From assembly GCA_964354105.1 (NCBI GenBank), contig CAYGXM010000003.1:789-64788 (forward strand): 64,000 nt of DNA, in the 5' to 3' direction. A program made the translations under genes and the position numbers. The notes below the pieces were generated by a model that worked only from the letters and a program-made list of their open reading frames with translations, ran no database searches and was not told the DNA's origin. This DNA is from Candidatus Woesearchaeota archaeon. Lineage in GTDB: Archaea > Nanobdellota > Nanobdellia > UBA10117. Below, one piece after another: positions 374 through 45,970 of the stretch (positions are counted from its first letter, which is position 1; every line of letters starts with the position of its first letter).

Positions 374-385
374 AAGCTTTAAAAA
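374..385 (+). promoter_or_regulatory. BRE/TATA-like box for tRNA-Lys(CUU)
   Basis: AAGCTTTAAAAA, with its core centred about 28 nt upstream of the tRNA 5' end at 410. The same motif and spacing occur upstream of five other tRNA genes in the window. Confidence 0.5.
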
Positions 386-409
386 CCGTCTAGAATTCTT
401 TTTCTTTAC

Positions 410-2637: not shown

Positions 2638-2731
2638 GGGCCGATGGTCTAACGGTTATGACGCACGCATGGCAAGCTCAGAGATGAGCCCACAGTGCGT
2701 GAGGCTCCGGGTTCGAATCCCGGTCGGTCCA
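2638..2731 (+). tRNA. tRNA-Ala (anticodon GGC) with a 21-nt intron at 37/38
   Basis: Acceptor GGGCCGA/TCGGTCC contains the G3:U70 Ala identity pair. Anticodon stem CACGC/GCGTG, loop AT-GGC-A. The predicted intron at 2675-2695 (AGCTCAGAGATGAGCCCACAG) contains the hairpin GCTCA/TGAGC. T arm CCGGG-TTCGAAT-CCCGG. A32 is unusual. Confidence 0.8.
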
Positions 2732-4711: not shown

Positions 4712-7700
4712 CTAGGCATTCTTTAATGCTTCTTCTTGTCTTTTTCTCCATATTTCCTCACGGTAACTATCGATTGCAGCTTCACGGCGCAGAATTCTTG
4801 GCGGCATGCCAAGCCACTTGTAGAACTCATGAGGAAGAGATGTAAATACCACGTTCTTTTTGGCTTTATTAACTTCTTCAATAGATTTAATTATATCTAT
4901 TTTATTTTCTGCGAAATATTTCAAAACTTCTGTTCTCAGGTATATATTTTCCGCTAGCAAACGATTATCGTATCTACCCATTAGTATACCTTCTACATTA
5001 GTAGTGCCGTTTTCGTAAAGACTTTGCTGTGCTTTTGCTTCGATTAATTCTTCTAATAATAGAAAGCCCGCTTCGCGTCTTTCATCTGCCTCACCACGCA
5101 TCTCCTGCCAAAGTGTATTTATTTTGTCTAAATTTATGTGTAAAGCTTCGTCATTAAAGTAAATATTTTGTGAAACATCATCCCTAAATGAATACACAGG
5201 CTTCAAATGTTTAAGGCCAACTATGCTACTAATTTTTCTATCTAGCTCTCCAATAGAATCTAACAATGTTAAATATGCAGTATCATTTGGTTTTATTCTC
5301 GCAACCCTTTTAGTATCCAATATGCCAAAATCCTTTTTGTTTTTATTTCGGATTTTAAACGCTAGTTTTGAAAAATAGTCACCTATGTCTTGGAGTGTAT
5401 AGTCCTGATAGTTTGGAGGCGACTCACTTTTCCACAAATCAGTAAACCGCTCTTTCGCGTTCGCGAATTTGGTTTTTACGGCCTCGATGCGCCGTGCCCA
5501 CCCCTCGCTTCTCTTTTGTTTGGCTTCCTCTTTTTCCTTGAGCTTATTTTCTCTGATTGTAACCCACTCCATCTCTTGCTCCCTTAGCCGGGCCGCTTTT
5601 TTCCGAGCCCTAAATTCTCTTTCTGTAGCCTTTTTCTTCCTATCTTTTAGCCATCGCGTATACCAGGAACTACTGCTATCTACAAGACCTTGCGCAGCTA
5701 GCTTGCCATAAACATAAGGTATTCCAAACAATTGATAAAAGCCATAACCAACATCTCTACAAAAGTCGCCAATTGTGTCGAGATAATCTTCTAAAACTTT
5801 TACATCATATTTTTTATCAACCTTGAGTTTTATTTGGTCTAATCTTGTAACAATTCGATTGACTAGCGGATTACTATGTATGTCAACAAAATAGTCGCCA
5901 TCTTTTAACCAAAAAGCCTCTTTTTCAGTATCATATTTTAGCTTATCTTTAAAGTAAAGTTCTATCAATTTTTCAATGGATATGCGCATAGGTGCTCCGC
6001 GAAGATGTTTTCCGCTAAAAACATATCTTTCGCCGCCAATGATGTCTGACAAATAATTTTGCGCTTTTGGGCCTACAGAGACTGAGTCGCCAGCATATAA
6101 CGCGGCAGGTATTATGTCCTTAGACATTATTTCGCGAAAGAAATCGTCAGCCTTAATTTTCAGTGTATATTTCTTAGCCAATTTCTTACGTAACTTTTCT
6201 CTTTTTAATTCACGTTTTGCTTCAACATCTACATAAATATTTAATTTTTTCTTAAGGTCGTCTTTTATTTCATGCAAGTTATATTTTAGGTCACTCAAGG
6301 TAAATTTGTTTTTCGCATAAACCCCTACATCAAGTGCACCAAGTCCTATTGCAGCAAGTCCTGCAAGCGCTTGAGGCCCGTATGCTTTGTAAAGCGCGTC
6401 TAGACCAATAACAGCACCTATGCCGATGGCTGTTCCTGCGCCTATTACTCCGCCCGCCAGCAAAATTCCTTCTAGCGTAATATTGTGGCTGCTAGAAATT
6501 TTTTTCTTTGAAGATGGTGTTCGCGAGCGCATTTTGTCATAAACACTGCCTAGCCATTCTCTTACAGAACCACCAACTTCTATTATTTTTGCAGCTCCGG
6601 TAATGGCTCCACTATGGAAACGTCGCGAGATTGAATAATTTTGTTTAAATTTATTTGTCAAATCTGATTTATACTCAGATTCAAAAATATCTGCAAGCTC
6701 TTCAAGTAGTGCGCTCGATGGGTGCTTCATAATTCTATCATCACCCAATACGCCGCTAAGGAACAAATCCTCAAATGCTTCATACTCTGCAGTTAAAACT
6801 TCTATTTGATTATCTGCTATTATGCTGTTTCTACCTTTAGTTAATGTTACTGCTCTTGGCAGATTTACCCAAAAATCTACTCCTGTTTGCACTAAGCTAT
6901 TCATTAATTTGTAATGCAATGTTTTCTCGTCAAAAGGAATATTTTCATTTTTAATGAAAAGTCCGCGCTGTGTTAAAATAATTTTGTCGGAGTTAGAGTC
7001 ATCTTGAGATCCTGGACTTGTTAAATTCTGACATGAGTAAGCAATTGTCAACCCTTTGTCGCTGCCCTTGAGGTCAACGTCAACACCTTTTGATTTTGTA
7101 TATGCGCGTTCTGGATTATTGACCCACGCACCGTTAAAATAAACTCTTGCATCATTTGAGCTAACATGGCCAACATACTTAATGGCATTGGCCTTGAGCT
7201 GTTCAGGCTTGGTTATACTTTTTGGAATGTACATCGTAACTGTTGTTCCCTTGCCATTAAGCTCGAGCGGCGCATCTTTTGGCAATAAGTACACATCTGC
7301 AAGCCACTTTCCATCCTTTGTTTTTGATTCATTGTGCACAACTGATAAAATAGTATAATCTAGATTGGAAGTTTTACTCAATGTAGCTACAAATTCAGCC
7401 ATGTCTAGAGTTGAATACCAGCCTATACCATGTTCGCCTATTTTATTTGGGTTGAATTCTTTTGGCGAATTGTACGGAACTAAAAGGTCCCTAATTTGGC
7501 CCTCAAGGTCCATTCCACAGCCCTTGTCTGCTACGGTTAGGACATAGTATCGATCTTGCTCTTCTACACTATAATTTATTTTTCTTTCAGCATCAGATGG
7601 CTCATACGAATCCATCGAGTTCTGGTTAAGCTCGCGCAATGATGCATAACGATTGCCAAATTGTGCCTCTATTGTTTTATTAACAATGCCTTCAAACAAT

Positions 7701-7912
7701 TTTGGCGAAGTCTGCTTTTCGCGTGTTAATTCTATATATTTTACAGCCTGCTCAAAGCTGGCATTTTTAGTAGATTTAGGCAAAGCCTTAATAAAGCCAT
7801 CAAAATCGCCCGCCATTTGCATCATTACTAAATCATTGAGGTAGAATCTCTGATGGGGGTAGCTATTAAGATCCGTTAACAACTCATCAAGACCGTTATA
7901 AGATTCGTACAT
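4712..7912 (-). CDS. 1066-aa GHKL/Hsp90-like ATPase with central glycine-zipper hydrophobic segments and a basic coiled-coil region
   Basis: Bergerat-fold motifs: RELNQNSMDS (N box), VADKGCGMD (G1) and IGEHGIGWYS (G2), at residues about 93-166. Residues about 481-533 read GILLAGGVIGAGTAIGIGAVIGL...ALAGLAAIGLGALDVGVYA. Residues about 753-823 are a K/R/E-rich helix. It is the last gene of the operon. Confidence 0.7.
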   Translation of the reverse strand: MYESYNGLDELLTDLNSYPHQRFYLNDLVMMQMAGDFDGFIKALPKSTKNASFEQAVKYIELTREKQTSPKLFEGIVNKTIEAQFGNRYASLRELNQNSMDSYEPSDAERKINYSVEEQDRYYVLTVADKGCGMDLEGQIRDLLVPYNSPKEFNPNKIGEHGIGWYSTLDMAEFVATLSKTSNLDYTILSVVHNESKTKDGKWLADVYLLPKDAPLELNGKGTTVTMYIPKSITKPEQLKANAIKYVGHVSSNDARVYFNGAWVNNPERAYTKSKGVDVDLKGSDKGLTIAYSCQNLTSPGSQDDSNSDKIILTQRGLFIKNENIPFDEKTLHYKLMNSLVQTGVDFWVNLPRAVTLTKGRNSIIADNQIEVLTAEYEAFEDLFLSGVLGDDRIMKHPSSALLEELADIFESEYKSDLTNKFKQNYSISRRFHSGAITGAAKIIEVGGSVREWLGSVYDKMRSRTPSSKKKISSSHNITLEGILLAGGVIGAGTAIGIGAVIGLDALYKAYGPQALAGLAAIGLGALDVGVYAKNKFTLSDLKYNLHEIKDDLKKKLNIYVDVEAKRELKREKLRKKLAKKYTLKIKADDFFREIMSKDIIPAALYAGDSVSVGPKAQNYLSDIIGGERYVFSGKHLRGAPMRISIEKLIELYFKDKLKYDTEKEAFWLKDGDYFVDIHSNPLVNRIVTRLDQIKLKVDKKYDVKVLEDYLDTIGDFCRDVGYGFYQLFGIPYVYGKLAAQGLVDSSSSWYTRWLKDRKKKATEREFRARKKAARLREQEMEWVTIRENKLKEKEEAKQKRSEGWARRIEAVKTKFANAKERFTDLWKSESPPNYQDYTLQDIGDYFSKLAFKIRNKNKKDFGILDTKRVARIKPNDTAYLTLLDSIGELDRKISSIVGLKHLKPVYSFRDDVSQNIYFNDEALHINLDKINTLWQEMRGEADERREAGFLLLEELIEAKAQQSLYENGTTNVEGILMGRYDNRLLAENIYLRTEVLKYFAENKIDIIKSIEEVNKAKKNVVFTSLPHEFYKWLGMPPRILRREAAIDSYREEIWRKRQEEALKNA

Positions 7913-7914
7913 GT

Positions 7915-9537
7915 TTAAGAACCCCCTGCTTTTGCATTAGAGCGCGATATCATACGAATTACATCGCGCACCACAAGTTTGATCTCCTGCCGTAATTCTT
8001 TCAAGCTGCGCGGTTCTTCAATGTTAATTAAGAAATCGTTGAAAAGTGCATATGCTTTTTTGTAATCAAACTTGTCGCTAGCTACATACGGATGCGCTGC
8101 ATTAACATATACTACTTTATGGCGGTCCGAAAAAGTAAACACGCGAGACCCCACACTTCCAGGATTAACGACCTTCATTGTATAAAATGTATGATCAGGT
8201 TCGTCTAAATGCCTATAAATTAAACACAGATTAGGGTAGATTTGTAAATGTGGCATATCCAAATACTTTGCTCTATCATAGAGAAAGTCATTTTCAAAAT
8301 CTTCAAATTTTCCCCAATTTTTCCAAAATTCATATGTAGACGCTTGGTTCGTCACAAGGGCGATATTATCTAATTCAGGACCTATAAAATCTTCAAAAGT
8401 CGAGAAATCTCCTAACTTTAAAATATATTTTTTATCGTTAAAAATTAACTTTTGTAATGTACTCATATTTTTTGGATGTCCGCTAGTTGCAAATGCAACA
8501 TCCTTAACAAGGTCGGCTAATTTACTTGCATCACTAGGATATTCTAACTTAACATGCCTTAGGTACTCTTCAAGTAAATCGTAGATGCAATCTACGGCTT
8601 TAAAGTAATTATCATTTTGTTTGAATTCGTCTCTTCCTTCAACAGGGTTGACGGCGGACGGGAAGTTTAAAACCGCTCCGAGCGAATCTGCAAAACGCTC
8701 GCGTACGCGCACGCCTTGTGAGACAAGCTTTACTCGCTCGTTATTATCTATAGCAAGAGAAACAAATTGTTTCAATTTTTTGCCTTTGACATCAAATTCA
8801 ACTTCGCGATGTAATCTGTCAGGGGTTTGCGGATTTATCTGCTCGTTATTTACGTAAATAGCCGCCTTTTGAATAGGTATGTCTGCCAGTTGATTAGCTA
8901 AATATTTCTGGAGCCCATCCAGATTGTTTTTTGTTCTAATTGTTACTTTTGTACTGCGTAAACCTGGGTGTAAATTTGTTACTTTTCTATTAAGCTTCAT
9001 TCTCAAGTCCGAAACTTCAGAACCCGTCGAATAAAATGTCATTTTATTGCATTCAAGTCCAGTATTTGTTTCGACGTCAATTGAATTTCGCAAATCTTTC
9101 AAACAATAGTTAAGCGTTGACAAAAATCCAACTCCAAATTTACCTATAGTCTCAATGCCTTCTTTCTGCGTACTAAATGGAACTATTAAATCACTTAATA
9201 CGTCATAAAGAGTCATTGCTTTGCCAGCATCGCATATCGTTACATATTTTGGTCGAGCTTCTACCCAGATATTATACTGTTCGCAGTTCTCAGGCTTTGC
9301 ATCTATTGAATTAAGAATTACCTCAAGCACAGGGCGTTCTTGCTCAGGGAATTGTTTTATGGCCTCTTCACGCATTATTTTTTCTATGAATTTTCTATTT
9401 GTGCTGTACACTTTTATTTCATCAAGAGGCTTATTTTGGTCTATTAAATCAACTATTCTCTGAAGATTGTCTATGTTCAATCCGGACAATATCCAATCGG
9501 TTAGTGGGAGATCATACTCTCGCGCAAATAAGGCCAT
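7915..9537 (-). CDS. 540-aa GHKL/Hsp90-like ATPase
   Basis: Motifs are LEVILNSIDAKPEN (N box), ICDAGKAMT (G1) and IGKFGVGFLS (compare Hsp90 IGQFGVGFYS). The ORF-track start 9546 is GTG. The first ATG at 9537 lies 1 nt after the upstream stop (TAATATG). Confidence 0.7.
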   Translation of the reverse strand: MALFAREYDLPLTDWILSGLNIDNLQRIVDLIDQNKPLDEIKVYSTNRKFIEKIMREEAIKQFPEQERPVLEVILNSIDAKPENCEQYNIWVEARPKYVTICDAGKAMTLYDVLSDLIVPFSTQKEGIETIGKFGVGFLSTLNYCLKDLRNSIDVETNTGLECNKMTFYSTGSEVSDLRMKLNRKVTNLHPGLRSTKVTIRTKNNLDGLQKYLANQLADIPIQKAAIYVNNEQINPQTPDRLHREVEFDVKGKKLKQFVSLAIDNNERVKLVSQGVRVRERFADSLGAVLNFPSAVNPVEGRDEFKQNDNYFKAVDCIYDLLEEYLRHVKLEYPSDASKLADLVKDVAFATSGHPKNMSTLQKLIFNDKKYILKLGDFSTFEDFIGPELDNIALVTNQASTYEFWKNWGKFEDFENDFLYDRAKYLDMPHLQIYPNLCLIYRHLDEPDHTFYTMKVVNPGSVGSRVFTFSDRHKVVYVNAAHPYVASDKFDYKKAYALFNDFLINIEEPRSLKELRQEIKLVVRDVIRMISRSNAKAGGS

Positions 9538-9538
9538 A

Positions 9539-11356
9539 TTAACCACTTCCTCCTAAACCGTCACGCGTAGTTTTAATACTTTTTTTAATAAAATCCGCTG
9601 CAGATTCTATTAAATTAACGTCAGCGCCTATACCTCTCATGGCCGAACTAAAGTTGTCCTCTTCGCCAATCTTAAATAACACAAACTTGTCGCAGCCGTC
9701 TTCAAGCATTGGTGCTATTGTATCAACCACTTGCGTAGAATTTACAAGCCCGCCGTCCGTAAGCATTATAGACATATAATTATCACGCCTCGTATCGTGC
9801 ACTTTTTTAAGGTCATTAATTTCAAGCACAGTATCTGAACCACCAAATTTAAACGCTTTTTGTTTTGCTTCGTCCAAGCCATCAAAGCGCTGCCAGTCAG
9901 AACTTTCTGTTTTATCTGAAAATACAGTAACGTTATAGTTTAGTAAATACTGCAGGCCTAAACTTTCAATTGTGTTAAGCGTTCCGTAAAAGCCAAGTAA
10001 TGCCAAATGATAAGGACTGCTGTTGTCAAATGGAATAAAATTCATACTGCCGCTGCGGTCTAAGATGAAATTCAAATCAGGAATTGCGCCAGTCTTTTTA
10101 TAATTCTGCGCTATCCTCAGCGTAATAGGATATACTTTCTGGAATAGTTCTATGTATGGCTGGCCGTTTGGCTGTTTAGCCAATCTTATTGATGACCAGT
10201 CAACTCTGTTAAAATCAATGTCCTCAAGTGATGTTTCCTCAGAGCCGACATATTTTGAAAATGCAAGGCCTGCGCATTCGACGTCAAGCTCTATCCTTTT
10301 CGCCGCTTCTCTATATTTTCTGTCAAGCTCTTCAAATGAATATACGAAATTGTTTACATCTCTAACTTTACTATATTTCCTTTTTTCAGGTTTTTTAGAA
10401 TCTGGCCTTCTATTATTATTGTTATCTCCCGTAGGAGTGTTTCCTTGGCCGCCATCCTCTTCATCCTGATTTTCCTGCTGGTCATCTTTTTGCTTGACTA
10501 ATTGGTATATATCCAAGGGAGCAAGTATCTTTGCATACTCTCTTGCTTTAGCTTTCCACGCAGGCATCTTTGCCACCTCATCACAAATTTTTCTCGAAGT
10601 TTTATCGTCGATGTTGCAGTCAAGCACAGCATCGCACAAATCTTTGTCCTCGCCCAAAATTACATTCAAGAGTTTTTTGCGCATGCGTTTGTAGCCAAGC
10701 ATATATTTATCGAGAAAGCTTCTGTTTACATATGTGAGATACGATTCGCCGTTCCATAAGTAAAGATTTGTATCCATGAAAAGGTTGAATGATTTCTCGG
10801 TGCGCTCGAAAATACTTTTATCCTTTTTTGAGAACTCAAAATTACTTAAATAAGACCAAAGCATCCCATGTTTAAATCTCTCAGCATCTTTGTCCTCGTA
10901 AGATAAGATAGTATTGGCTATCGTATCCATAAACATATTGCTAATGCGTTGCGTTTTAGCCATAACCATTATAGGTTTCCATTCGTGTAGAATTACACCT
11001 TCGCGTATGCCTTTGAGAATTTCTTGTGCGCCTTTTTCTGTTGCAGGGCAATGTCTTGCATGGCCTTCTTCATGGCTTATAAGTCCGTACAGCGAATCGC
11101 ACGCCAATTCTTTTGTAGAGTCTTTCATGGCATGCTTGTATCTTAAATGATCGAGCACGTCGTAAAATTCAGGCCGAACGCCAATTCTTACCTGGTTTGA
11201 TAGCATATTAATATAAGCAAATGAGAGTGTAGGTATTTCTGGCTGAACTGTAAACTCTAAACTGGAAATTAGGTTTTTTTCTTGTAGCATCGCCTCGCAA
11301 GCTTGCCTTAGTTCTCCAATCTTAACTTCATTTTTGGTTGCCATTTTAATCTTCAT
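9539..11356 (-). CDS. predicted HExxH metallopeptidase-like domain fused to a C-terminal vWA (MIDAS) domain
   Basis: HExxH (SHEEGH, 11060-11074). An acidic/Asn-rich linker follows (QENQDEEDGGQGNTPTGDNNNN). The vWA MIDAS DxSxS motif is ILDRSGSM (10043-10060). An alternative ATG at 11344 lies 1 nt after the upstream stop. Confidence 0.75.
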   Translation of the reverse strand: MKIKMATKNEVKIGELRQACEAMLQEKNLISSLEFTVQPEIPTLSFAYINMLSNQVRIGVRPEFYDVLDHLRYKHAMKDSTKELACDSLYGLISHEEGHARHCPATEKGAQEILKGIREGVILHEWKPIMVMAKTQRISNMFMDTIANTILSYEDKDAERFKHGMLWSYLSNFEFSKKDKSIFERTEKSFNLFMDTNLYLWNGESYLTYVNRSFLDKYMLGYKRMRKKLLNVILGEDKDLCDAVLDCNIDDKTSRKICDEVAKMPAWKAKAREYAKILAPLDIYQLVKQKDDQQENQDEEDGGQGNTPTGDNNNNRRPDSKKPEKRKYSKVRDVNNFVYSFEELDRKYREAAKRIELDVECAGLAFSKYVGSEETSLEDIDFNRVDWSSIRLAKQPNGQPYIELFQKVYPITLRIAQNYKKTGAIPDLNFILDRSGSMNFIPFDNSSPYHLALLGFYGTLNTIESLGLQYLLNYNVTVFSDKTESSDWQRFDGLDEAKQKAFKFGGSDTVLEINDLKKVHDTRRDNYMSIMLTDGGLVNSTQVVDTIAPMLEDGCDKFVLFKIGEEDNFSSAMRGIGADVNLIESAADFIKKSIKTTRDGLGGSG

Positions 11357-14514: not shown

Positions 14515-14562
14515 ATTTTTAATCTTTTTTAATTTCTATGACAATGTCTGGCTTAAAGGATT

Positions 14563-14574
14563 AAGCTTTTTAAC
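14563..14574 (+). promoter_or_regulatory. BRE/TATA-like box for tRNA-Thr
   Basis: AAGCTTTTTAAC, with its core centred 27.5 nt upstream of the tRNA 5' end at 14598. Confidence 0.5.
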
Positions 14575-14597
14575 TATTAACAAATCAGCCATTGCAT

Positions 14598-14741
14598 GCC
14601 TCGGTAGCTCAGCCAGGAAGAGCGTTAGGTTTTCAAAAAAGAGATGGAAATCCGCTAAGCCTTGGTATGCGCAAAGTCCCCTTTGCGGGATTGATTGCAT
14701 CAATAAGGCAAAGGTCGCCGGTTCGATTCCGGCCCGAGGCA
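14598..14741 (+). tRNA. tRNA-Thr (anticodon GGT) with two predicted introns (32 nt at 28/29, 38 nt at 37/38)
   Basis: Acceptor GCCTCGG/CCGAGGC. D arm GCTC-AGCCAGGAA-GAGC. T arm GCCGG-TTCGATT-CCGGC. Removing 14627-14658 and 14668-14705 gives a perfect anticodon arm TTGCC-TTGGTAA-GGCAA and a 74-nt mature tRNA. The isotype depends on this splice model. Confidence 0.7.
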
Positions 14742-26876: not shown

Positions 26877-26890
26877 TAACACTTTTAAAT
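26877..26890 (+). promoter_or_regulatory. TATA-like box for tRNA-Tyr
   Basis: TAACACTTTTAAAT, with its core centred 27.5 nt upstream of the tRNA 5' end at 26913. Confidence 0.5.
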
Positions 26891-26912
26891 TCAAATTTTA
26901 ACTCTAAATCAT

Positions 26913-27073
26913 CCCGCCTTAGCTCAGACTGGTTAGAGCGCCTGGCTGTAGACAGCACTTATCGCTAGATAAGCACTGAATTATAGCGCTCAGAACCCGG
27001 GAGGTCGCTGGTTCAAAGAAAACAGCGAAGCTGTTTAGGCTTTACTGCTTTCGAACAGATCCGGCAGGCGGGA
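26913..27073 (+). tRNA. tRNA-Tyr (anticodon GTA) with two predicted introns (44 nt at 37/38, 42 nt at 59/60)
   Basis: Acceptor CCCGCCT/AGGCGGG carries C1:G72, the archaeal/eukaryal Tyr identity pair. Anticodon arm CCTGG-CTGTAG[intron 26952-26995]C-CCGGG. Variable AGGTC. T arm GCTGG-TTCAAA[intron 27018-27059]T-CCGGC. The mature length would be 75 nt. Confidence 0.8.
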
Positions 27074-27147
27074 TTCCTAGTCAAAAACATTTTAAAAGCC
27101 CAAATTCCAGCAAAAGATTTATATTTAAGATAGGAGAGATAACTGTC

Positions 27148-27780
27148 ATGGCCAAGTTAAAAATGTCTACTAGGTTAGCAGAATTTGTCGGAATTATGCT
27201 GGGCGACGGGTCTATTGTTGCCAACAGCAGAATTAAACAGTATGCTGTTTATGTTTGCGGGAATTCCGAAGATGATGAAAGATATCTTCTAAATTTTATC
27301 AAGCCGTTAATTAAAGATTTGTTTGCTATTGAGATGTCTGTAAAATATCACCAAAAATTCAAGGAAATTTTATTGTACAAGTATAGTAAAGATTTTGTTA
27401 AAATTTTAGAGGGAGTCGGGCTAAAAGCAGGAAATAAAAAAGATAATAATGTTGGCTTCCCCAACTGGATTTTTACCGATAAGAAATTCATTGCGGCTTG
27501 TTTACGCGGATTGTTTAATACAGACGGCACAATCTATAAAAGATGGAAACACAAAGGTTATTTTATAGAGTTTACGTCTAATATATTTAAACTTCAAACA
27601 GACATTATAAAAGCTCTAGATTTATTAGAAATTAATCATAGTATATGGTTTAGGAGCAAAGGTCCTATAGCTAATAGGTGTAGTATTTGTTCTCAGGCTG
27701 CAGTGAAAAGATTTTTAAGCACTGTAGGCTCGAGTAATCCTAAGTACAATAAAATTGTACTGAAAGCCCGGGTAGTCTAG
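27148..27780 (+). CDS. free-standing double-motif LAGLIDADG homing endonuclease (210 aa)
   Basis: Two LAGLIDADG motifs: LAEFVGIMLGDGSI and FIAACLRGLFNTDGTI. The ATG is preceded by TAGGAGAG. The last 15 nt, including the stop, overlap the 5' end of tRNA-Asp. Confidence 0.85.
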   Translation: MAKLKMSTRLAEFVGIMLGDGSIVANSRIKQYAVYVCGNSEDDERYLLNFIKPLIKDLFAIEMSVKYHQKFKEILLYKYSKDFVKILEGVGLKAGNKKDNNVGFPNWIFTDKKFIAACLRGLFNTDGTIYKRWKHKGYFIEFTSNIFKLQTDIIKALDLLEINHSIWFRSKGPIANRCSICSQAAVKRFLSTVGSSNPKYNKIVLKARVV

Positions 27781-27876
27781 CGGTTAGGATAGAAATGCTG
27801 TGAGAAATTATGGCACTATTGCCCTGTCAATTACCGCAGAACGGTTCAGACCCGAGTTCAAATCTCGGCCCGGGCG
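27766..27876 (+). tRNA. tRNA-Asp (anticodon GTC) with two predicted introns (27 nt at 29/30, 12 nt at 37/38)
   Basis: Acceptor GCCCGGG/CCCGGGC with discriminator G. D arm GTCT-AGCGGTTA-GGAT. Removing 27795-27821 and 27830-27841 gives the anticodon arm GAACC-CTGTCAC-GGTTC, with a perfect stem. The variable loop is 4 nt (AGAC). T arm CCGAG-TTCAAAT-CTCGG. Confidence 0.7.
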
Positions 27877-45891: not shown

Positions 45892-45935
45892 ATCTGGAGA
45901 TTGAAAGCATAGTTATTTAACTTTTGCCTGAGCGA

Positions 45936-45948
45936 CATCTTTTTAATG
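45936..45948 (+). promoter_or_regulatory. TATA-like box for tRNA-Lys(UUU)
   Basis: CATCTTTTTAATG, with its core centred 27.5 nt upstream of the tRNA 5' end at 45971. Confidence 0.5.
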
Positions 45949-45970
45949 CGATTTTTAATCTGTTTTATGT

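What the first reader, a model, noticed from the sequence alone, without database searches (positions are those of the whole stretch)
26913..27876. Free-standing LAGLIDADG homing endonuclease gene wedged between two double-intron tRNA genes and overlapping one of them
A 210-aa double-motif LAGLIDADG ORF (27148-27780) lies 74 nt after tRNA-Tyr. Its last 15 nt (27766-27780) are the first 15 nt of tRNA-Asp. In archaea, LAGLIDADG endonucleases are normally encoded inside rRNA or tRNA introns or inteins. Here the ORF lies outside any predicted intron, between genes that each carry two introns. tRNA-Asp is the only independently placed tRNA in the window without the conserved TATA-like box at about -27. 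It is therefore probably transcribed with the endonuclease mRNA (inference). The arrangement could be a relic of intron or endonuclease mobility, or a domesticated enzyme.
Basis: partly seen in the sequence, partly recalled or inferred. Interest (0 to 1): 0.65.

Follow-up and report, generated by a model that had tools for sequence, protein, structure and literature searches.

The report
Endonuclease gene family docked onto tRNA genes
The small gene that runs into the start of tRNA-Asp is an intact LAGLIDADG homing endonuclease, and it belongs to a large family, not described in the papers I could search, whose members nearly always sit directly against the 5' end of one particular tRNA gene in DPANN and other archaea and in some bacteria, which points to a selfish element that targets tRNA genes without disabling them.

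Summary
ORF 27148-27780 encodes a 210-aa double-motif LAGLIDADG protein with both catalytic Asp residues. It starts 74 nt after tRNA-Tyr. Its stop codon is U13-A14-G15 of tRNA-Asp(GTC), 27766-27876. Both tRNAs carry two introns.

tRNA-Tyr is incidental; the conserved unit is ORF plus tRNA-Asp. In about 70 of 78 related loci a same-strand tRNA gene starts 15 or 10 nt before the ORF's end, or just after it. These loci come from DPANN, Bathyarchaeia, Hadarchaeota, Methanosarcinales, CPR bacteria and Omnitrophota. Protein subfamilies follow tRNA identity (Glu, Gln or Asp in archaea, Ser in bacteria), not host taxonomy.

A related contig has the identical tRNA-Asp and intron but no ORF. The clade shows dN/dS of 0.05-0.12. 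The ORF has the lowest GC content in the window.

Longer family members keep a decaying copy of the tRNA 5' segment just upstream of their own TATA box. The functional tRNA usually carries a non-canonical intron 5' of the anticodon.

Best reading (about 0.62, mechanism inferred): a tRNA-gene-targeting, free-standing homing endonuclease cassette. Whether tRNA-Asp is co-transcribed with it is unresolved, because a conserved TATA-like box lies inside the ORF at -56.

The parts
26913..27073 (+). tRNA-Tyr(GTA) with two introns: an anticodon-loop intron at about 26952-26996 and a T-loop intron at 27018-27059. It is a neighbour of the endonuclease/tRNA-Asp unit, not a conserved part of it.
   Evidence: Read by hand and folded. 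Orthologues L005-L008 lack the T-loop intron, and L005/L006 carry an extra D-loop intron. tRNA-Tyr is absent upstream of the ORF in L001; L097 and L098 keep only a stub of its 3' end.
27074..27147 (+). Upstream region of the ORF. It holds TATA-like box 1 (27091-27098, TTTAAAAG), TATA-like box 2 (27118-27125, TTTATATT, 30 nt before the ATG) and a conserved stretch, TAGGAGAGATAACTGTC (27131-27147), that runs into the ATG. 27074-27090 (TTCCTAGTCAAAAACAT) is only a weak candidate for a decayed tRNA 5' remnant.
   Evidence: The distance from box 2 to the ATG equals the distance from TATA box to tRNA +1 in this window. The conserved stretch is shared by the window, L097, L005 and L098, and nearly so by L001. 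No significant remnant was detected in the window.
27148..27780 (+). Free-standing LAGLIDADG endonuclease gene, 210 aa. This is the short form, lacking the roughly 95-aa N-terminal helix-turn-helix-like domain seen in most relatives.
   Evidence: Pfam PF14528, E 2.3e-10. AlphaFold2 model with pLDDT 92.8. Foldseek matches to WhiA, PI-PfuI, I-Tsp061I and I-DmoI. dN/dS 0.05-0.12. GC 33.5%, the lowest of 45 ORFs of at least 150 aa in the window.
27175..27210 (+). LAGLIDADG motif 1 (LAEFVGIMLGDG), with catalytic Asp20.
   Evidence: D20 is conserved in 75 of 77 family members and is invariant in alignment A1.
27493..27528 (+). LAGLIDADG motif 2 (AACLRGLFNTDG), with catalytic Asp126.
   Evidence: D126 is conserved in 76 of 77 members, and K97 in 75 of 77.
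27710..27720 (+). TATA-like box GATTTTTAAGC inside the ORF (codons K-R-F-L-S), 56-46 nt before tRNA-Asp. It is a candidate internal promoter for tRNA-Asp.
   Evidence: It matches the window's tRNA promoter consensus. The core TTTTTAA is invariant in all seven clade members even though synonymous sites are saturated. The chance of this is about 0.02 for four independent lineages.
27743..27761 (+). Hairpin AGTACAAT-AAA-ATTGTACT in the ORF tail, ending 4 nt before tRNA +1. Its function is unknown.
   Evidence: Folding energy is -6.6 kcal/mol. Four different stem sequences occupy the same position in the six clade members (-4.9 to -13.1 kcal/mol). The hairpin is absent from the wider family.
27766..27876 (+). 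tRNA-Asp(GTC). The 5' exon is 27766-27794, and it contains the ORF's last four sense codons and its stop codon. Intron 1 is 27795-27821 (non-canonical position 29/30, full bulge-helix-bulge). Intron 2 is 27830-27841 (position 37/38, 12 nt, bulge-helix-loop).
   Evidence: Rfam 42 bits. Brute-force intron removal recovers a two-intron Asp(GTC) solution among several equally scored alternatives, including Tyr and Ser; GTC is fixed by the one-intron orthologues L011, L001 and L099, in which the same position reads CTGTCAC. Bulge-helix-bulge geometry and compensatory changes across five orthologues. The same tRNA with the same intron occurs without the ORF in L093.

Best explanation
The ORF is a member of a family of free-standing LAGLIDADG homing endonuclease genes that live at the 5' edge of specific tRNA genes. 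The proposed mechanism is inferred from anatomy.

Proposed mechanism:
1. The enzyme cuts an unoccupied, intron-less tRNA-Asp, tRNA-Glu or tRNA-Gln gene in the D-arm / anticodon-stem 5' region.
2. Break repair copies in a cassette. The cassette consists of its own promoter, the ORF, and a fresh copy of the tRNA 5' segment. The ORF has no stop codon of its own and reads into that segment, ending at the tRNA's conserved U8-A9-G10 or U13-A14-G15.
3. The old 5' segment is left upstream as a decaying remnant. Such a remnant is seen in the long-form relatives but is no longer recognisable in this window.
4. A short non-canonical bulge-helix-bulge intron, at position 29/30 here, separates the new 5' segment from the rest of the tRNA. 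The target sequence is therefore not re-created, and splicing restores the tRNA.
5. The tRNA stays functional because it is transcribed either from the cassette promoter as an ORF-tRNA co-transcript or from a promoter embedded in the ORF's 3' end.

Shown: gene integrity, the junction, the family-wide architecture, the match between subfamily and tRNA type, and a related contig with the tRNA but no ORF.

Inferred: DNA cleavage, the target site, the immunity role of the intron, and the transcription unit.
For: - The protein is an intact enzyme by sequence and model. Pfam LAGLIDADG_3. D20, D126 and K97 are conserved in at least 75 of 77 relatives. The model is confident and has a LAGLIDADG fold.
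- The junction is family-wide. A same-strand tRNA starts at -14 or -9, or within about 30 nt, of the ORF stop in 62 of 78 loci by my acceptor-plus-T-arm scan, and eight more are visible by eye. Rfam independently confirms 13 of 20 loci tested. Among 35 distant viral LAGLIDADG relatives the count is 0 of 35.
- Every unambiguous archaeal case is tRNA-Glu, Gln or Asp. Bacterial members sit on tRNA-Ser.
- Protein clusters follow tRNA identity across host phyla.
- An unoccupied site exists. L093 has a tRNA-Asp 100% identical over 101 nt, intron included, to that of L095, which carries the ORF. The flanks are only 79-87% identical. A 47-nt native promoter segment in L093 stands in place of the 671-nt cassette in L095.
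- L097 and L098 carry a stub of the tRNA-Tyr 3' end upstream of the cassette without a complete tRNA-Tyr.
- Between L005 and L001 the endonuclease is 73% identical, while RpoB is 65% and RpoH 50%.
- The ORF's GC content is the lowest in the window.
- Long forms have a fixed layout. A D-arm remnant lies at -57..-48 from the ATG in 16 loci (19 of 65 loci overall, against 26 of 1319 control windows, p = 4e-15). A TATA box lies at -32..-25 from the ATG. L017's remnant is 24/24 identical to the functional copy and L063's is 24/26.
- Wherever the linked tRNA has an intron, the first one lies 5' of the anticodon and not at the canonical 37/38 position.
- The window's 29/30 intron is a conserved bulge-helix-bulge.
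Against: - No cleavage assay exists, so the target site is a guess.
- The window's clade lacks a recognisable 5' remnant and the N-terminal domain. It may no longer be mobile.
- dN/dS of 0.05-0.12 over saturated synonymous sites, together with conserved gene order next to RpoH-RpoB, fits long vertical inheritance and could equally indicate a host function.
- About 14 linked tRNAs have no intron. Bacterial tRNA-Ser genes cannot use bulge-helix-bulge splicing. An intron therefore cannot be the general way of avoiding self-cleavage.
- The unoccupied contig L093 already carries the intron, so it is not the predicted naive target.
- The exact intron positions are constrained by my solver, which only allows introns after position 26. 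Hand reading places several in the D-loop, at about 20/21.
- How the 5' end of tRNA-Asp is produced is unknown. All other tRNA genes in the window have promoters spaced as if for leaderless transcription.
Confidence: 0.62

Rival explanations
1. Domesticated LAGLIDADG protein. The endonuclease fold has been recruited for a host function tied to the adjacent tRNA. It might act as a maturase-like factor that helps the non-canonical D-arm / anticodon-stem intron fold for splicing. Alternatively it might be a DNA-binding regulator of the tRNA gene, as WhiA is for other genes.
For: dN/dS is 0.05-0.12 over saturated synonymous divergence. The gene keeps the same position next to RpoH-RpoB in several lineages. 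The best structural match is WhiA, and the bI3 and I-AniI maturases are also among the hits. The gene is tightly linked to an intron-bearing tRNA.
Against: - Both catalytic Asp residues and the active-site Lys are kept in at least 75 of 77 members. WhiA and pure maturases have lost them (from established knowledge).
- The same tRNA with the same intron exists without the ORF in L093.
- About 14 linked tRNAs have no intron, and bacterial members sit on intron-less tRNA-Ser.
- The family is found in only 338 of 185,579 species genomes.
- GC content is atypically low.
- tRNA 5' remnants upstream of long forms are insertion scars.
Confidence: 0.2
2. Fixed, immobile remnant. A once-mobile endonuclease gene became trapped because it displaced the native promoter of an essential tRNA, so deleting it would silence that tRNA. 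It is now inherited vertically, whether or not it is still active.
For: The window's clade lacks a recognisable 5' remnant that could serve as a left homology arm, and it lacks the N-terminal domain. tRNA-Asp has no promoter box at the usual distance. The endonuclease has diverged to about the same degree as its neighbours between the window and L005: 82% identity, against 69-90% for neighbours.
Against: Promoter capture alone would not hold dN/dS at about 0.08 or preserve the catalytic residues. L093 shows that the tRNA can regain or keep a normal promoter without the ORF. In the more distant pair the endonuclease is more conserved than RpoB.
Confidence: 0.13
3. Intron-encoded endonuclease that has been mis-read as free-standing. 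On this reading the ORF lies inside a very long bulge-helix-bulge or group I intron of a tRNA whose true 5' exon lies upstream.
For: ARAGORN calls a tRNA with a 970-nt intron around the ORF in L017. In L017 and L063 the upstream copy of the 5' segment is intact or nearly so.
Against: In the window a complete tRNA-Asp with a paired acceptor stem lies wholly downstream of position 27766. No upstream 5' exon copy is detectable in the window. In most loci the upstream copy is degenerate and could not form an acceptor stem. No group I intron match was found. Archaeal group I introns have been reported only in rRNA genes (PMC6125680).
Confidence: 0.03

Closest known systems
Archaeal intron-encoded and intein-encoded LAGLIDADG homing endonucleases (I-DmoI, I-Tsp061I, PI-PfuI; Pfam PF14528)
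   Same: Monomeric two-motif LAGLIDADG fold with one catalytic acidic residue per motif. Foldseek TM-scores are 0.6-0.73. By sequence, the nearest named profiles are the endonuclease domains of inteins.
   Different: The gene lies in no intron or intein. It resides at the 5' edge of a tRNA gene rather than in an rRNA or protein-coding gene. It has no stop codon of its own. Most members carry an extra N-terminal helix-turn-helix-like domain. Sequence identity to solved structures is only 13-22%, and a sequence search of the PDB finds nothing.
Free-standing phage homing endonucleases and 'collaborative homing' (F-CphI next to the ORF-less psbA intron; T4 mobE with I-TevIII; T4 SegB in the tRNA gene cluster)
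   Same: The endonuclease gene sits beside its host gene rather than inside it. An ORF-less intron in the neighbouring gene lies where the target is presumed to be. SegB also acts in a tRNA gene region (PMC6083498, PMC2790892, PMC2330249).
   Different: The enzyme family differs: LAGLIDADG here, against Endo VII-like, HNH or GIY-YIG. The hosts are cellular rather than phage. The intron is an archaeal bulge-helix-bulge intron, not a group I intron. The ORF physically overlaps the tRNA. Long forms duplicate the tRNA 5' segment, which phage cases do not.
Mobile endonuclease ORFs in fungal mitochondria that bring a replacement copy of the gene end they displace (for example Allomyces atp6), and integrative elements that carry part of a tRNA gene at their attachment site (both recalled from memory, not checked here)
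   Same: The insertion restores the interrupted host gene by supplying its own copy of the displaced segment, and the original copy is left to decay.
   Different: Here the duplicated piece is the 5' part of a tRNA and the cassette also supplies a promoter. No integrase is involved. The mitochondrial cases concern 3' ends of protein-coding genes.
WhiA and LAGLIDADG maturases (bI3, I-AniI)
   Same: WhiA is the best structural match (8dy9_I, E 2e-10). There is also a Pfam LAGLIDADG_WhiA hit at E 1.4e-6.
   Different: The catalytic Asp residues are retained here. There is no C-terminal helix-turn-helix domain as in WhiA. There is no group I intron partner.

Membership tests
LAGLIDADG homing endonuclease (enzyme family) | Two LAGLIDADG motifs, each ending in a catalytic Asp or Glu followed by Gly | tested here: met
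   The motifs are LAEFVGIMLGDG (D20) and AACLRGLFNTDG (D126). Both Asp residues are invariant in A1 and conserved in at least 75 of 77 relatives.
LAGLIDADG homing endonuclease (enzyme family) | Pseudo-symmetric alpha-beta-beta-alpha-beta-beta-alpha double-domain fold | tested here: met
   The AlphaFold2 model has pLDDT 92.8 and pTM 0.90, with the expected order of secondary-structure elements. Foldseek hits to I-DmoI, I-Tsp061I and PI-PfuI have probability 1.00.
LAGLIDADG homing endonuclease (enzyme family) | Site-specific double-strand cleavage of a long DNA target, leaving 4-nt 3' overhangs | not testable with these tools
   This needs a biochemical assay.
Homing endonuclease gene as a mobile element | Presence/absence polymorphism at the same site in related genomes | tested here: met
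   L093 lacks the ORF and L095 has it. Their tRNA-Asp genes are identical and their flanks are 79-87% identical. This is one pair only.
Homing endonuclease gene as a mobile element | Element lineages follow the target site rather than the host phylogeny | tested here: met
   UPGMA clusters correspond to Glu, Gln, Asp and Ser tRNAs, and each cluster spans several phyla. This is distance clustering only. No formal reconciliation with host trees was done.
Classical intron- or intein-encoded homing endonuclease | The ORF is embedded in a self-splicing or bulge-helix-bulge intron, or in an intein | tested here: not met
   The ORF lies upstream of a complete tRNA-Asp and outside both of its introns. 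There is no group I intron hit. The protein has no flanking intein sequence; the match covers the whole protein.
Collaborative homing (free-standing endonuclease gene plus ORF-less intron) | The endonuclease gene is adjacent to a gene that carries an ORF-less intron | tested here: met
   The 29/30 intron begins 15 nt after the ORF stop codon. In 35 related loci the linked tRNA has an intron 5' of the anticodon. About 14 loci have no intron.
Collaborative homing (free-standing endonuclease gene plus ORF-less intron) | The enzyme cleaves the intron-less allele at the intron insertion site, and the intron confers immunity | not testable with these tools
   This needs cleavage assays on intron-less and intron-containing tRNA-Asp DNA.
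Archaeal bulge-helix-bulge tRNA intron (tRNA-Asp intron 1) | Two 3-nt bulges separated by a 4-bp helix, with splice sites that restore the mature tRNA | tested here: met
   H2 is ATAG/CTAT and the bulges are AAA and TGC. H3 is an 8-bp helix with compensatory changes in five orthologues. The spliced stem GAACC pairs with GGTTC.
WhiA-like domesticated LAGLIDADG regulator | Loss of the catalytic acidic residues, plus a C-terminal helix-turn-helix domain | tested here: not met
   The catalytic Asp residues are retained. The protein ends 13 residues after the conserved SNPK motif near the end of the LAGLIDADG core, and its last four residues are encoded by tRNA sequence.

The most novel reading that the evidence does not exclude
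This family could be a previously unrecognised way for a homing endonuclease to occupy an essential gene harmlessly. It is not spliced out. Instead it brings a promoter and a replacement tRNA 5' segment, borrows the tRNA's own bases as its stop codon, and relies on tRNA processing to release the tRNA. Its activity could also be what spreads short non-canonical bulge-helix-bulge introns among archaeal tRNA-Asp, Glu and Gln genes. If a recipient's 5' segment pairs with the cassette's proximal copy, only the intron would be copied in. That would give a DNA-level mechanism for tRNA intron gain in archaea.
Probability: 0.35. Interest if true: 0.88.

Novelty: new variant of a known kind. Interest (0 to 1): 0.74.

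Why it matters
- Homing endonucleases are thought to persist in essential genes only inside self-splicing introns or inteins. A family that persists at tRNA genes by other means would add a third strategy.
- It would link a protein-coding selfish element to the unexplained abundance and mobility of non-canonical tRNA introns in archaea. That question has so far had no candidate enzyme.
- It explains a recurrent annotation conflict in DPANN and CPR metagenome-assembled genomes, where a protein gene overlaps a tRNA gene.
- It offers hundreds of compact LAGLIDADG scaffolds whose targets should be predictable, namely tRNA genes.
- It raises a concrete question about how a tRNA 5' end is made downstream of a 0.6-0.9 kb ORF in organisms whose other tRNA promoters are spaced as if for leaderless transcription.

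Tried and rejected
- ARAGORN with default settings and the 64-kb Rfam scan both missed the two multi-intron tRNAs. A local Rfam search recovered tRNA-Asp.
- A sequence search of the PDB found nothing.
- My first metagenome DNA pattern contained a typing error and returned no hits. The corrected pattern gave six loci.
- Exact-protein look-ups for the window's own protein (P0001) and for the downstream HD-domain protein were not on record. The cluster look-up gave no names. The organism is therefore inferred only from the closest genome, a Candidatus Woesearchaeota MAG with 82% protein identity and the same gene order.
- ARAGORN's intron-mode anticodon calls were often wrong; for example it called the Asp gene of L011 as Tyr. 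I replaced them with brute-force intron removal.
- I tested whether the hairpin before the tRNA is a family feature. It is not. It is specific to the window's clade, and elsewhere the last 32 nt are unusually unstructured.
- I considered a giant-intron reading (ARAGORN call for L017). I rejected it for the window and for most loci because the upstream copy is degenerate or absent.
- I considered a group I intron. There are no Rfam hits.
- I considered a viral source. Only distant relatives (25-33% identity) occur in viral contigs, and none is next to a tRNA.
- I looked for a 5' remnant of tRNA-Asp in the window and found none that is significant.
- Seven literature searches found no description of this arrangement. 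The library does not cover most subscription journals.
Full report
**1. What is at the locus**

ORF 27148-27780 (+) encodes 210 aa. It matches Pfam LAGLIDADG_3 at E 2.3e-10, with weaker matches to LAGLIDADG_WhiA and LAGLIDADG_2. Both motifs keep their catalytic Asp: LAEFVGIMLGDG (D20) and AACLRGLFNTDG (D126). An AlphaFold2 model built from 13 sequences is confident (pLDDT 92.8, pTM 0.90) and shows the two-domain LAGLIDADG topology. The best Foldseek matches in the PDB are WhiA, PI-PfuI, I-Tsp061I, the bI3 maturase and I-DmoI. A sequence-only PDB search finds nothing. The nearest NCBIfam profiles are the endonuclease domains of inteins.

tRNA-Asp(GTC) lies at 27766-27876. Rfam recovers it at 42 bits when the region is searched alone. 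ARAGORN and the whole-window Rfam scan both miss it. The ORF's stop codon TAG (27778-27780) is U13-A14-G15 of the tRNA, so the 15-nt overlap is real.

tRNA-Tyr(GTA) lies at 26913-27073 and ends 74 nt before the ATG.

Each tRNA has two introns:
- tRNA-Asp intron 1 (27795-27821) sits at the non-canonical position 29/30. It forms a complete bulge-helix-bulge: H1 GG/CC, H2 ATAG/CTAT, 3-nt bulges AAA and TGC, and an 8-bp inner helix.
- Cutting after the second base of each bulge gives the anticodon stem GAACC, which pairs with GGTTC.
- The same geometry holds in four orthologues through compensatory changes, including changes across the splice junction (GAGCC/GGCTC and GGACC/GGTCC).
- tRNA-Asp intron 2 (27830-27841, 12 nt, position 37/38) is an exact insertion relative to the orthologues in L001, L005 and L099.
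- The T-loop intron of tRNA-Tyr (27018-27059) is likewise an exact insertion relative to L005-L008.

**2. The conserved unit is ORF plus tRNA-Asp, not the tRNA pair**

Six metagenomic relatives at 73-84% identity, and one at 50%, all end inside the 5' end of a tRNA. The closer relatives end ...ARVV*; this tail is encoded by the tRNA's first 12 bases.

In the L001/L095 lineage the upstream neighbour is a protein gene, not tRNA-Tyr. L097 and L098 keep only a stub of the tRNA-Tyr 3' end (GGCAGGCGGGA and GCAGGA). In those lineages the block has therefore either moved with some flanking DNA or the duplicated tRNA-Tyr has decayed.

**3. The arrangement is a family hallmark**

A scan of one genome per species (185,579 species) found 338 relatives. 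I examined the best 80. They come from:
- Woese-, Pace-, Nano-, Aenigm-, Iain- and Micrarchaeota;
- Bathyarchaeia, Hadarchaeota, Methanosarcinales and Asgard archaea;
- CPR bacteria and Omnitrophota.

In 62 of the 78 loci where the ORF's stop lies within the fetched sequence, my scan for a paired acceptor stem plus T-arm finds a same-strand tRNA. It most often starts at -14 or -9 relative to the ORF's last base, less often a little deeper inside the ORF or within about 30 nt downstream. At -14 or -9 the stop codon is tRNA positions 13-15 or 8-10. Eight further loci show a tRNA 5' end by eye, usually with introns in unusual places. Rfam at its curated threshold independently confirms the tRNA start in 13 of 20 loci tested.

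As a control, none of 35 distant viral LAGLIDADG relatives has a nearby tRNA. The expected number of chance adjacencies is far below one, assuming roughly 45 tRNA genes per Mb.

Because both overlap frames occur, and some ORFs stop just before the tRNA, the overlap itself appears to be a by-product. The ORF lacks its own stop codon and abuts the tRNA.

An exhaustive profile search gives 815 clusters at 50% identity with E at most 1e-30, and 3067 with E at most 1e-10.

**4. Which tRNAs**

After brute-force intron removal, every unambiguous archaeal case is tRNA-Glu(TTC/CTC), tRNA-Gln(TTG/CTG) or tRNA-Asp(GTC). Bacterial members sit on tRNA-Ser.

Distance clustering of 77 proteins separates a Glu group, a Gln group, two Asp groups and the bacterial Ser groups. 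The window falls in one Asp group with L011, L019 and L032. Each archaeal group mixes several phyla; the Gln group, for example, holds DPANN lineages, Hadarchaeota and Methanosarcinales. Lineages that follow the target site rather than the host are what one expects of site-specific homing endonucleases.

The 5' 21 nt of a tRNA-Glu gene without the ORF (L091) are identical to those of the tRNA-Asp in L093. That similarity offers an easy route for switching between these tRNAs.

**5. Evidence for mobility and for selection**

- L093 carries a tRNA-Asp 100% identical over 101 nt, including the 27-nt intron, to that of L095, which encodes P0005. L093 has no ORF.
- The upstream flanks of L093 and L095 align at 86.6% and the downstream flanks at 78.8%.
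- A 47-nt segment with a normally placed TATA box (-31..-25) in L093 occupies the place of the 671-nt cassette in L095.
- Among the six close clade members dN/dS is 0.05-0.12, with dS from 0.9 to saturation.
- Across the family, D20, D126 and K97 are each kept in at least 75 of 77 sequences.
- Between the window and L005 the endonuclease (82% identity) has diverged about as much as its neighbours (69-90%).
- Between L005 and L001 the endonuclease is more conserved (73%) than RpoB (65%), RpoH (50%) or the VTT-domain protein (47%). This suggests either transfer after the hosts diverged or unusually strong constraint.
- The ORF has the lowest GC content of 45 ORFs of at least 150 aa in the window: 33.5% against 39.6 +/- 2.3%.

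**6. Architecture of the long forms**

Most relatives are about 300 aa in archaea and about 330 aa in bacteria. They carry an N-terminal helix-turn-helix-like domain that the window's protein lacks.

Upstream of their ATG there is a TATA box at -32..-25. This is the same spacing as between TATA box and tRNA +1, which implies a leaderless or very short-leader mRNA.

Directly 5' of that box lies a second copy of the tRNA's 5' segment, consisting of the acceptor strand plus the D-arm up to about position 26:
- It is 24/24 identical to the functional copy in L017 and 24/26 in L063.
- It is clearly recognisable in L012, L041, L058, L065, L067, L074 and L076, and degenerate in many others.
- A D-arm-like motif occurs upstream of the ATG in 19 of 65 loci, and in 16 of them at -57..-48. 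The control rate is 26 of 1319 windows (Fisher p = 4e-15).
- The distance from the start of the remnant to the ATG is 55-64 nt in 17 loci. Six remnants still have a TATA box at the canonical distance upstream.

In the functional downstream tRNA, whenever an intron is present the first one lies 5' of the anticodon and not at 37/38. My solver cannot place introns before position 27. Hand reading of L012, L017, L019, L033 and L063 puts them in the D-loop at about 20/21. Those introns share the ending GGCTA(T/G), which pairs with the exon sequence GGCC.

The layout is therefore: old 5' segment | TATA, ORF, new 5' segment, short intron | rest of the tRNA. About 14 linked tRNAs have no intron. Two bacterial loci also show remnants of a tRNA-Ser 5' segment upstream of the ORF (L059, L075).

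**7. Most likely mechanism (inferred)**

The enzyme targets intron-less tRNA genes near the junction of the D-arm and the anticodon stem. The cassette behaves like an intron for the purpose of homing, because tRNA sequence flanks it on both sides and can serve as portable homology arms. It is not removed by splicing. Instead it rescues the tRNA by providing a promoter and a new 5' segment.

The short intron would prevent the target from being re-formed. If a recipient's 5' segment pairs with the cassette's proximal copy, only the intron would be transferred. That would produce an allele like L093.

The window's copy is a derived short form. It has lost the N-terminal domain and has no recognisable remnant, but it has an intact active site and is under strong purifying selection. 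I put 0.62 on a homing-cassette origin and nature, 0.20 on domestication, 0.13 on a trapped immobile copy, and 0.03 on a mis-read intron.

**8. Transcription of tRNA-Asp is unresolved**

Five tRNA genes in the window have a CTTTTWAA box at -36..-24. A sixth (2735) starts 4 nt after another tRNA. tRNA-Asp has no box at that distance.

The ORF has TATA-like boxes at 27091-27098 and 27118-27125, and a conserved stretch, TAGGAGAGATAACTGTC, running into the ATG. It therefore has its own start signals.

However, GATTTTTAAGC at 27710-27720 matches the local tRNA promoter consensus. Its TTTTTAA core is invariant in all seven clade members, although synonymous sites elsewhere are saturated. The chance of this is about 0.02 for four independent lineages. 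A start about 25 nt downstream of that box would give a leader consisting of the covarying hairpin (27743-27761) plus GAAA.

Some relatives (L012, L033, L035, L039, L061) instead have a TATA box inside the ORF at the canonical -35.

How the 5' end of the tRNA is produced, and whether cleavage there leaves the ORF mRNA without its stop codon, cannot be decided from sequence.

**9. Comparison with what is known**

The protein is a LAGLIDADG enzyme by motif and by fold. It fails the classical criterion of being intron- or intein-encoded.

The closest known behaviour is that of free-standing phage endonucleases. These include 'collaborative homing' with an ORF-less intron (PMC6083498, PMC2790892) and SegB acting in the T4 tRNA gene region (PMC2330249).

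The duplication of a host-gene segment recalls mitochondrial endonuclease ORFs that bring a replacement gene end, and tRNA-targeting integrative elements. Both of these comparisons are from memory.

Seven full-text searches found no description of a LAGLIDADG family docked on tRNA 5' ends. Archaeal group I introns with LAGLIDADG ORFs have been reported only in rRNA genes (PMC6125680). The searched library does not cover most subscription journals, so earlier work cannot be excluded.

**10. Verdict**

The finding is the visible tip of a widespread, structurally stereotyped association between an endonuclease gene and a tRNA gene. I rate it a new variant of a known kind, with interest 0.74.

Noticed in passing
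window 26913-27073; L005:about 2800-2990, L006, L007, L008: tRNA-Tyr intron content differs between close strains. The T-loop intron (27018-27059) occurs only in the window. A 30-nt D-loop intron occurs only in L005 and L006. The anticodon-loop intron is present in all. These are recent intron gains or losses at three positions of one tRNA.
   Followed up: partly
window 27743-27761: A hairpin in the last codons of the ORF ends 4 nt before tRNA +1. Four unrelated stem sequences occupy the same place in the six clade members, while the encoded amino acids vary freely. Selection seems to act on the structure. Its function is unknown; it might serve as a processing signal, as a protected mRNA 3' end, or to insulate tRNA folding. 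It is absent from the wider family.
   Followed up: partly
window 374-409, 2602-2637, 14562-14597, 26880-26912, 45935-45970: All independently placed tRNA genes have a (G)CTTTTWAA box at a fixed -36..-24 from the mature 5' end. Spacing this strict suggests transcription starts at or very near +1, as reported for Nanoarchaeum equitans, which lacks RNase P (from memory). If so, maturation of the ORF-linked tRNA-Asp needs explaining.
   Followed up: no
L097:about 1040-1134; L098:about 350-465: A stub of the tRNA-Tyr 3' end, possibly a decayed pseudo-tRNA-Tyr, lies upstream of the endonuclease cassette in two relatives whose upstream genes are unrelated to the window's. This suggests the Tyr-ORF-Asp block was transferred or rearranged as a unit.
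   Followed up: partly
L093 versus L095 (reverse-complement coordinates 9743-9849 versus 7575-9037): A second indel lies immediately downstream of tRNA-Asp. L095 has about 1.46 kb at the position where the orthologous locus L001 carries a VTT-domain gene and a glycosyltransferase gene, while L093 has 107 nt. The tRNA is flanked by variable DNA on both sides.
   Followed up: no
L059, L075, L082, L084, L085, L086, L089: Bacterial family members (CPR, Omnitrophota; about 330 aa) sit directly upstream of tRNA-Ser genes, at offsets from -39 to +18. L059 and L075 show remnants of a tRNA-Ser 5' segment just before the ATG. The same architecture therefore occurs in bacteria, which lack bulge-helix-bulge splicing.
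   Followed up: partly
L038:about 2370-2460; L050: In two family members the ORF has no tRNA after it. In L038 a tRNA-Gln 3' end lies about 60 nt upstream of the ATG instead; L050 shares the adjacent upstream sequence, but its tRNA end was not seen in the stretch I read. This is an exception to the rule and may reflect rearrangement.
   Followed up: no
window 2638-2731, 2735-2843, 14598-14741: Two intron-bearing tRNA genes lie only 3 nt apart. Another tRNA has an 83-nt interruption in its anticodon arm. The genome is unusually rich in tRNA introns.
   Followed up: no
L019:3080-3260; L032; L048; L078; L072: Several endonuclease-linked tRNAs also carry T-loop or T-stem introns in addition to the D-arm intron. 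This is why standard tRNA finders miss them, and why annotation pipelines report an unexplained ORF with no tRNA next to it.
   Followed up: no
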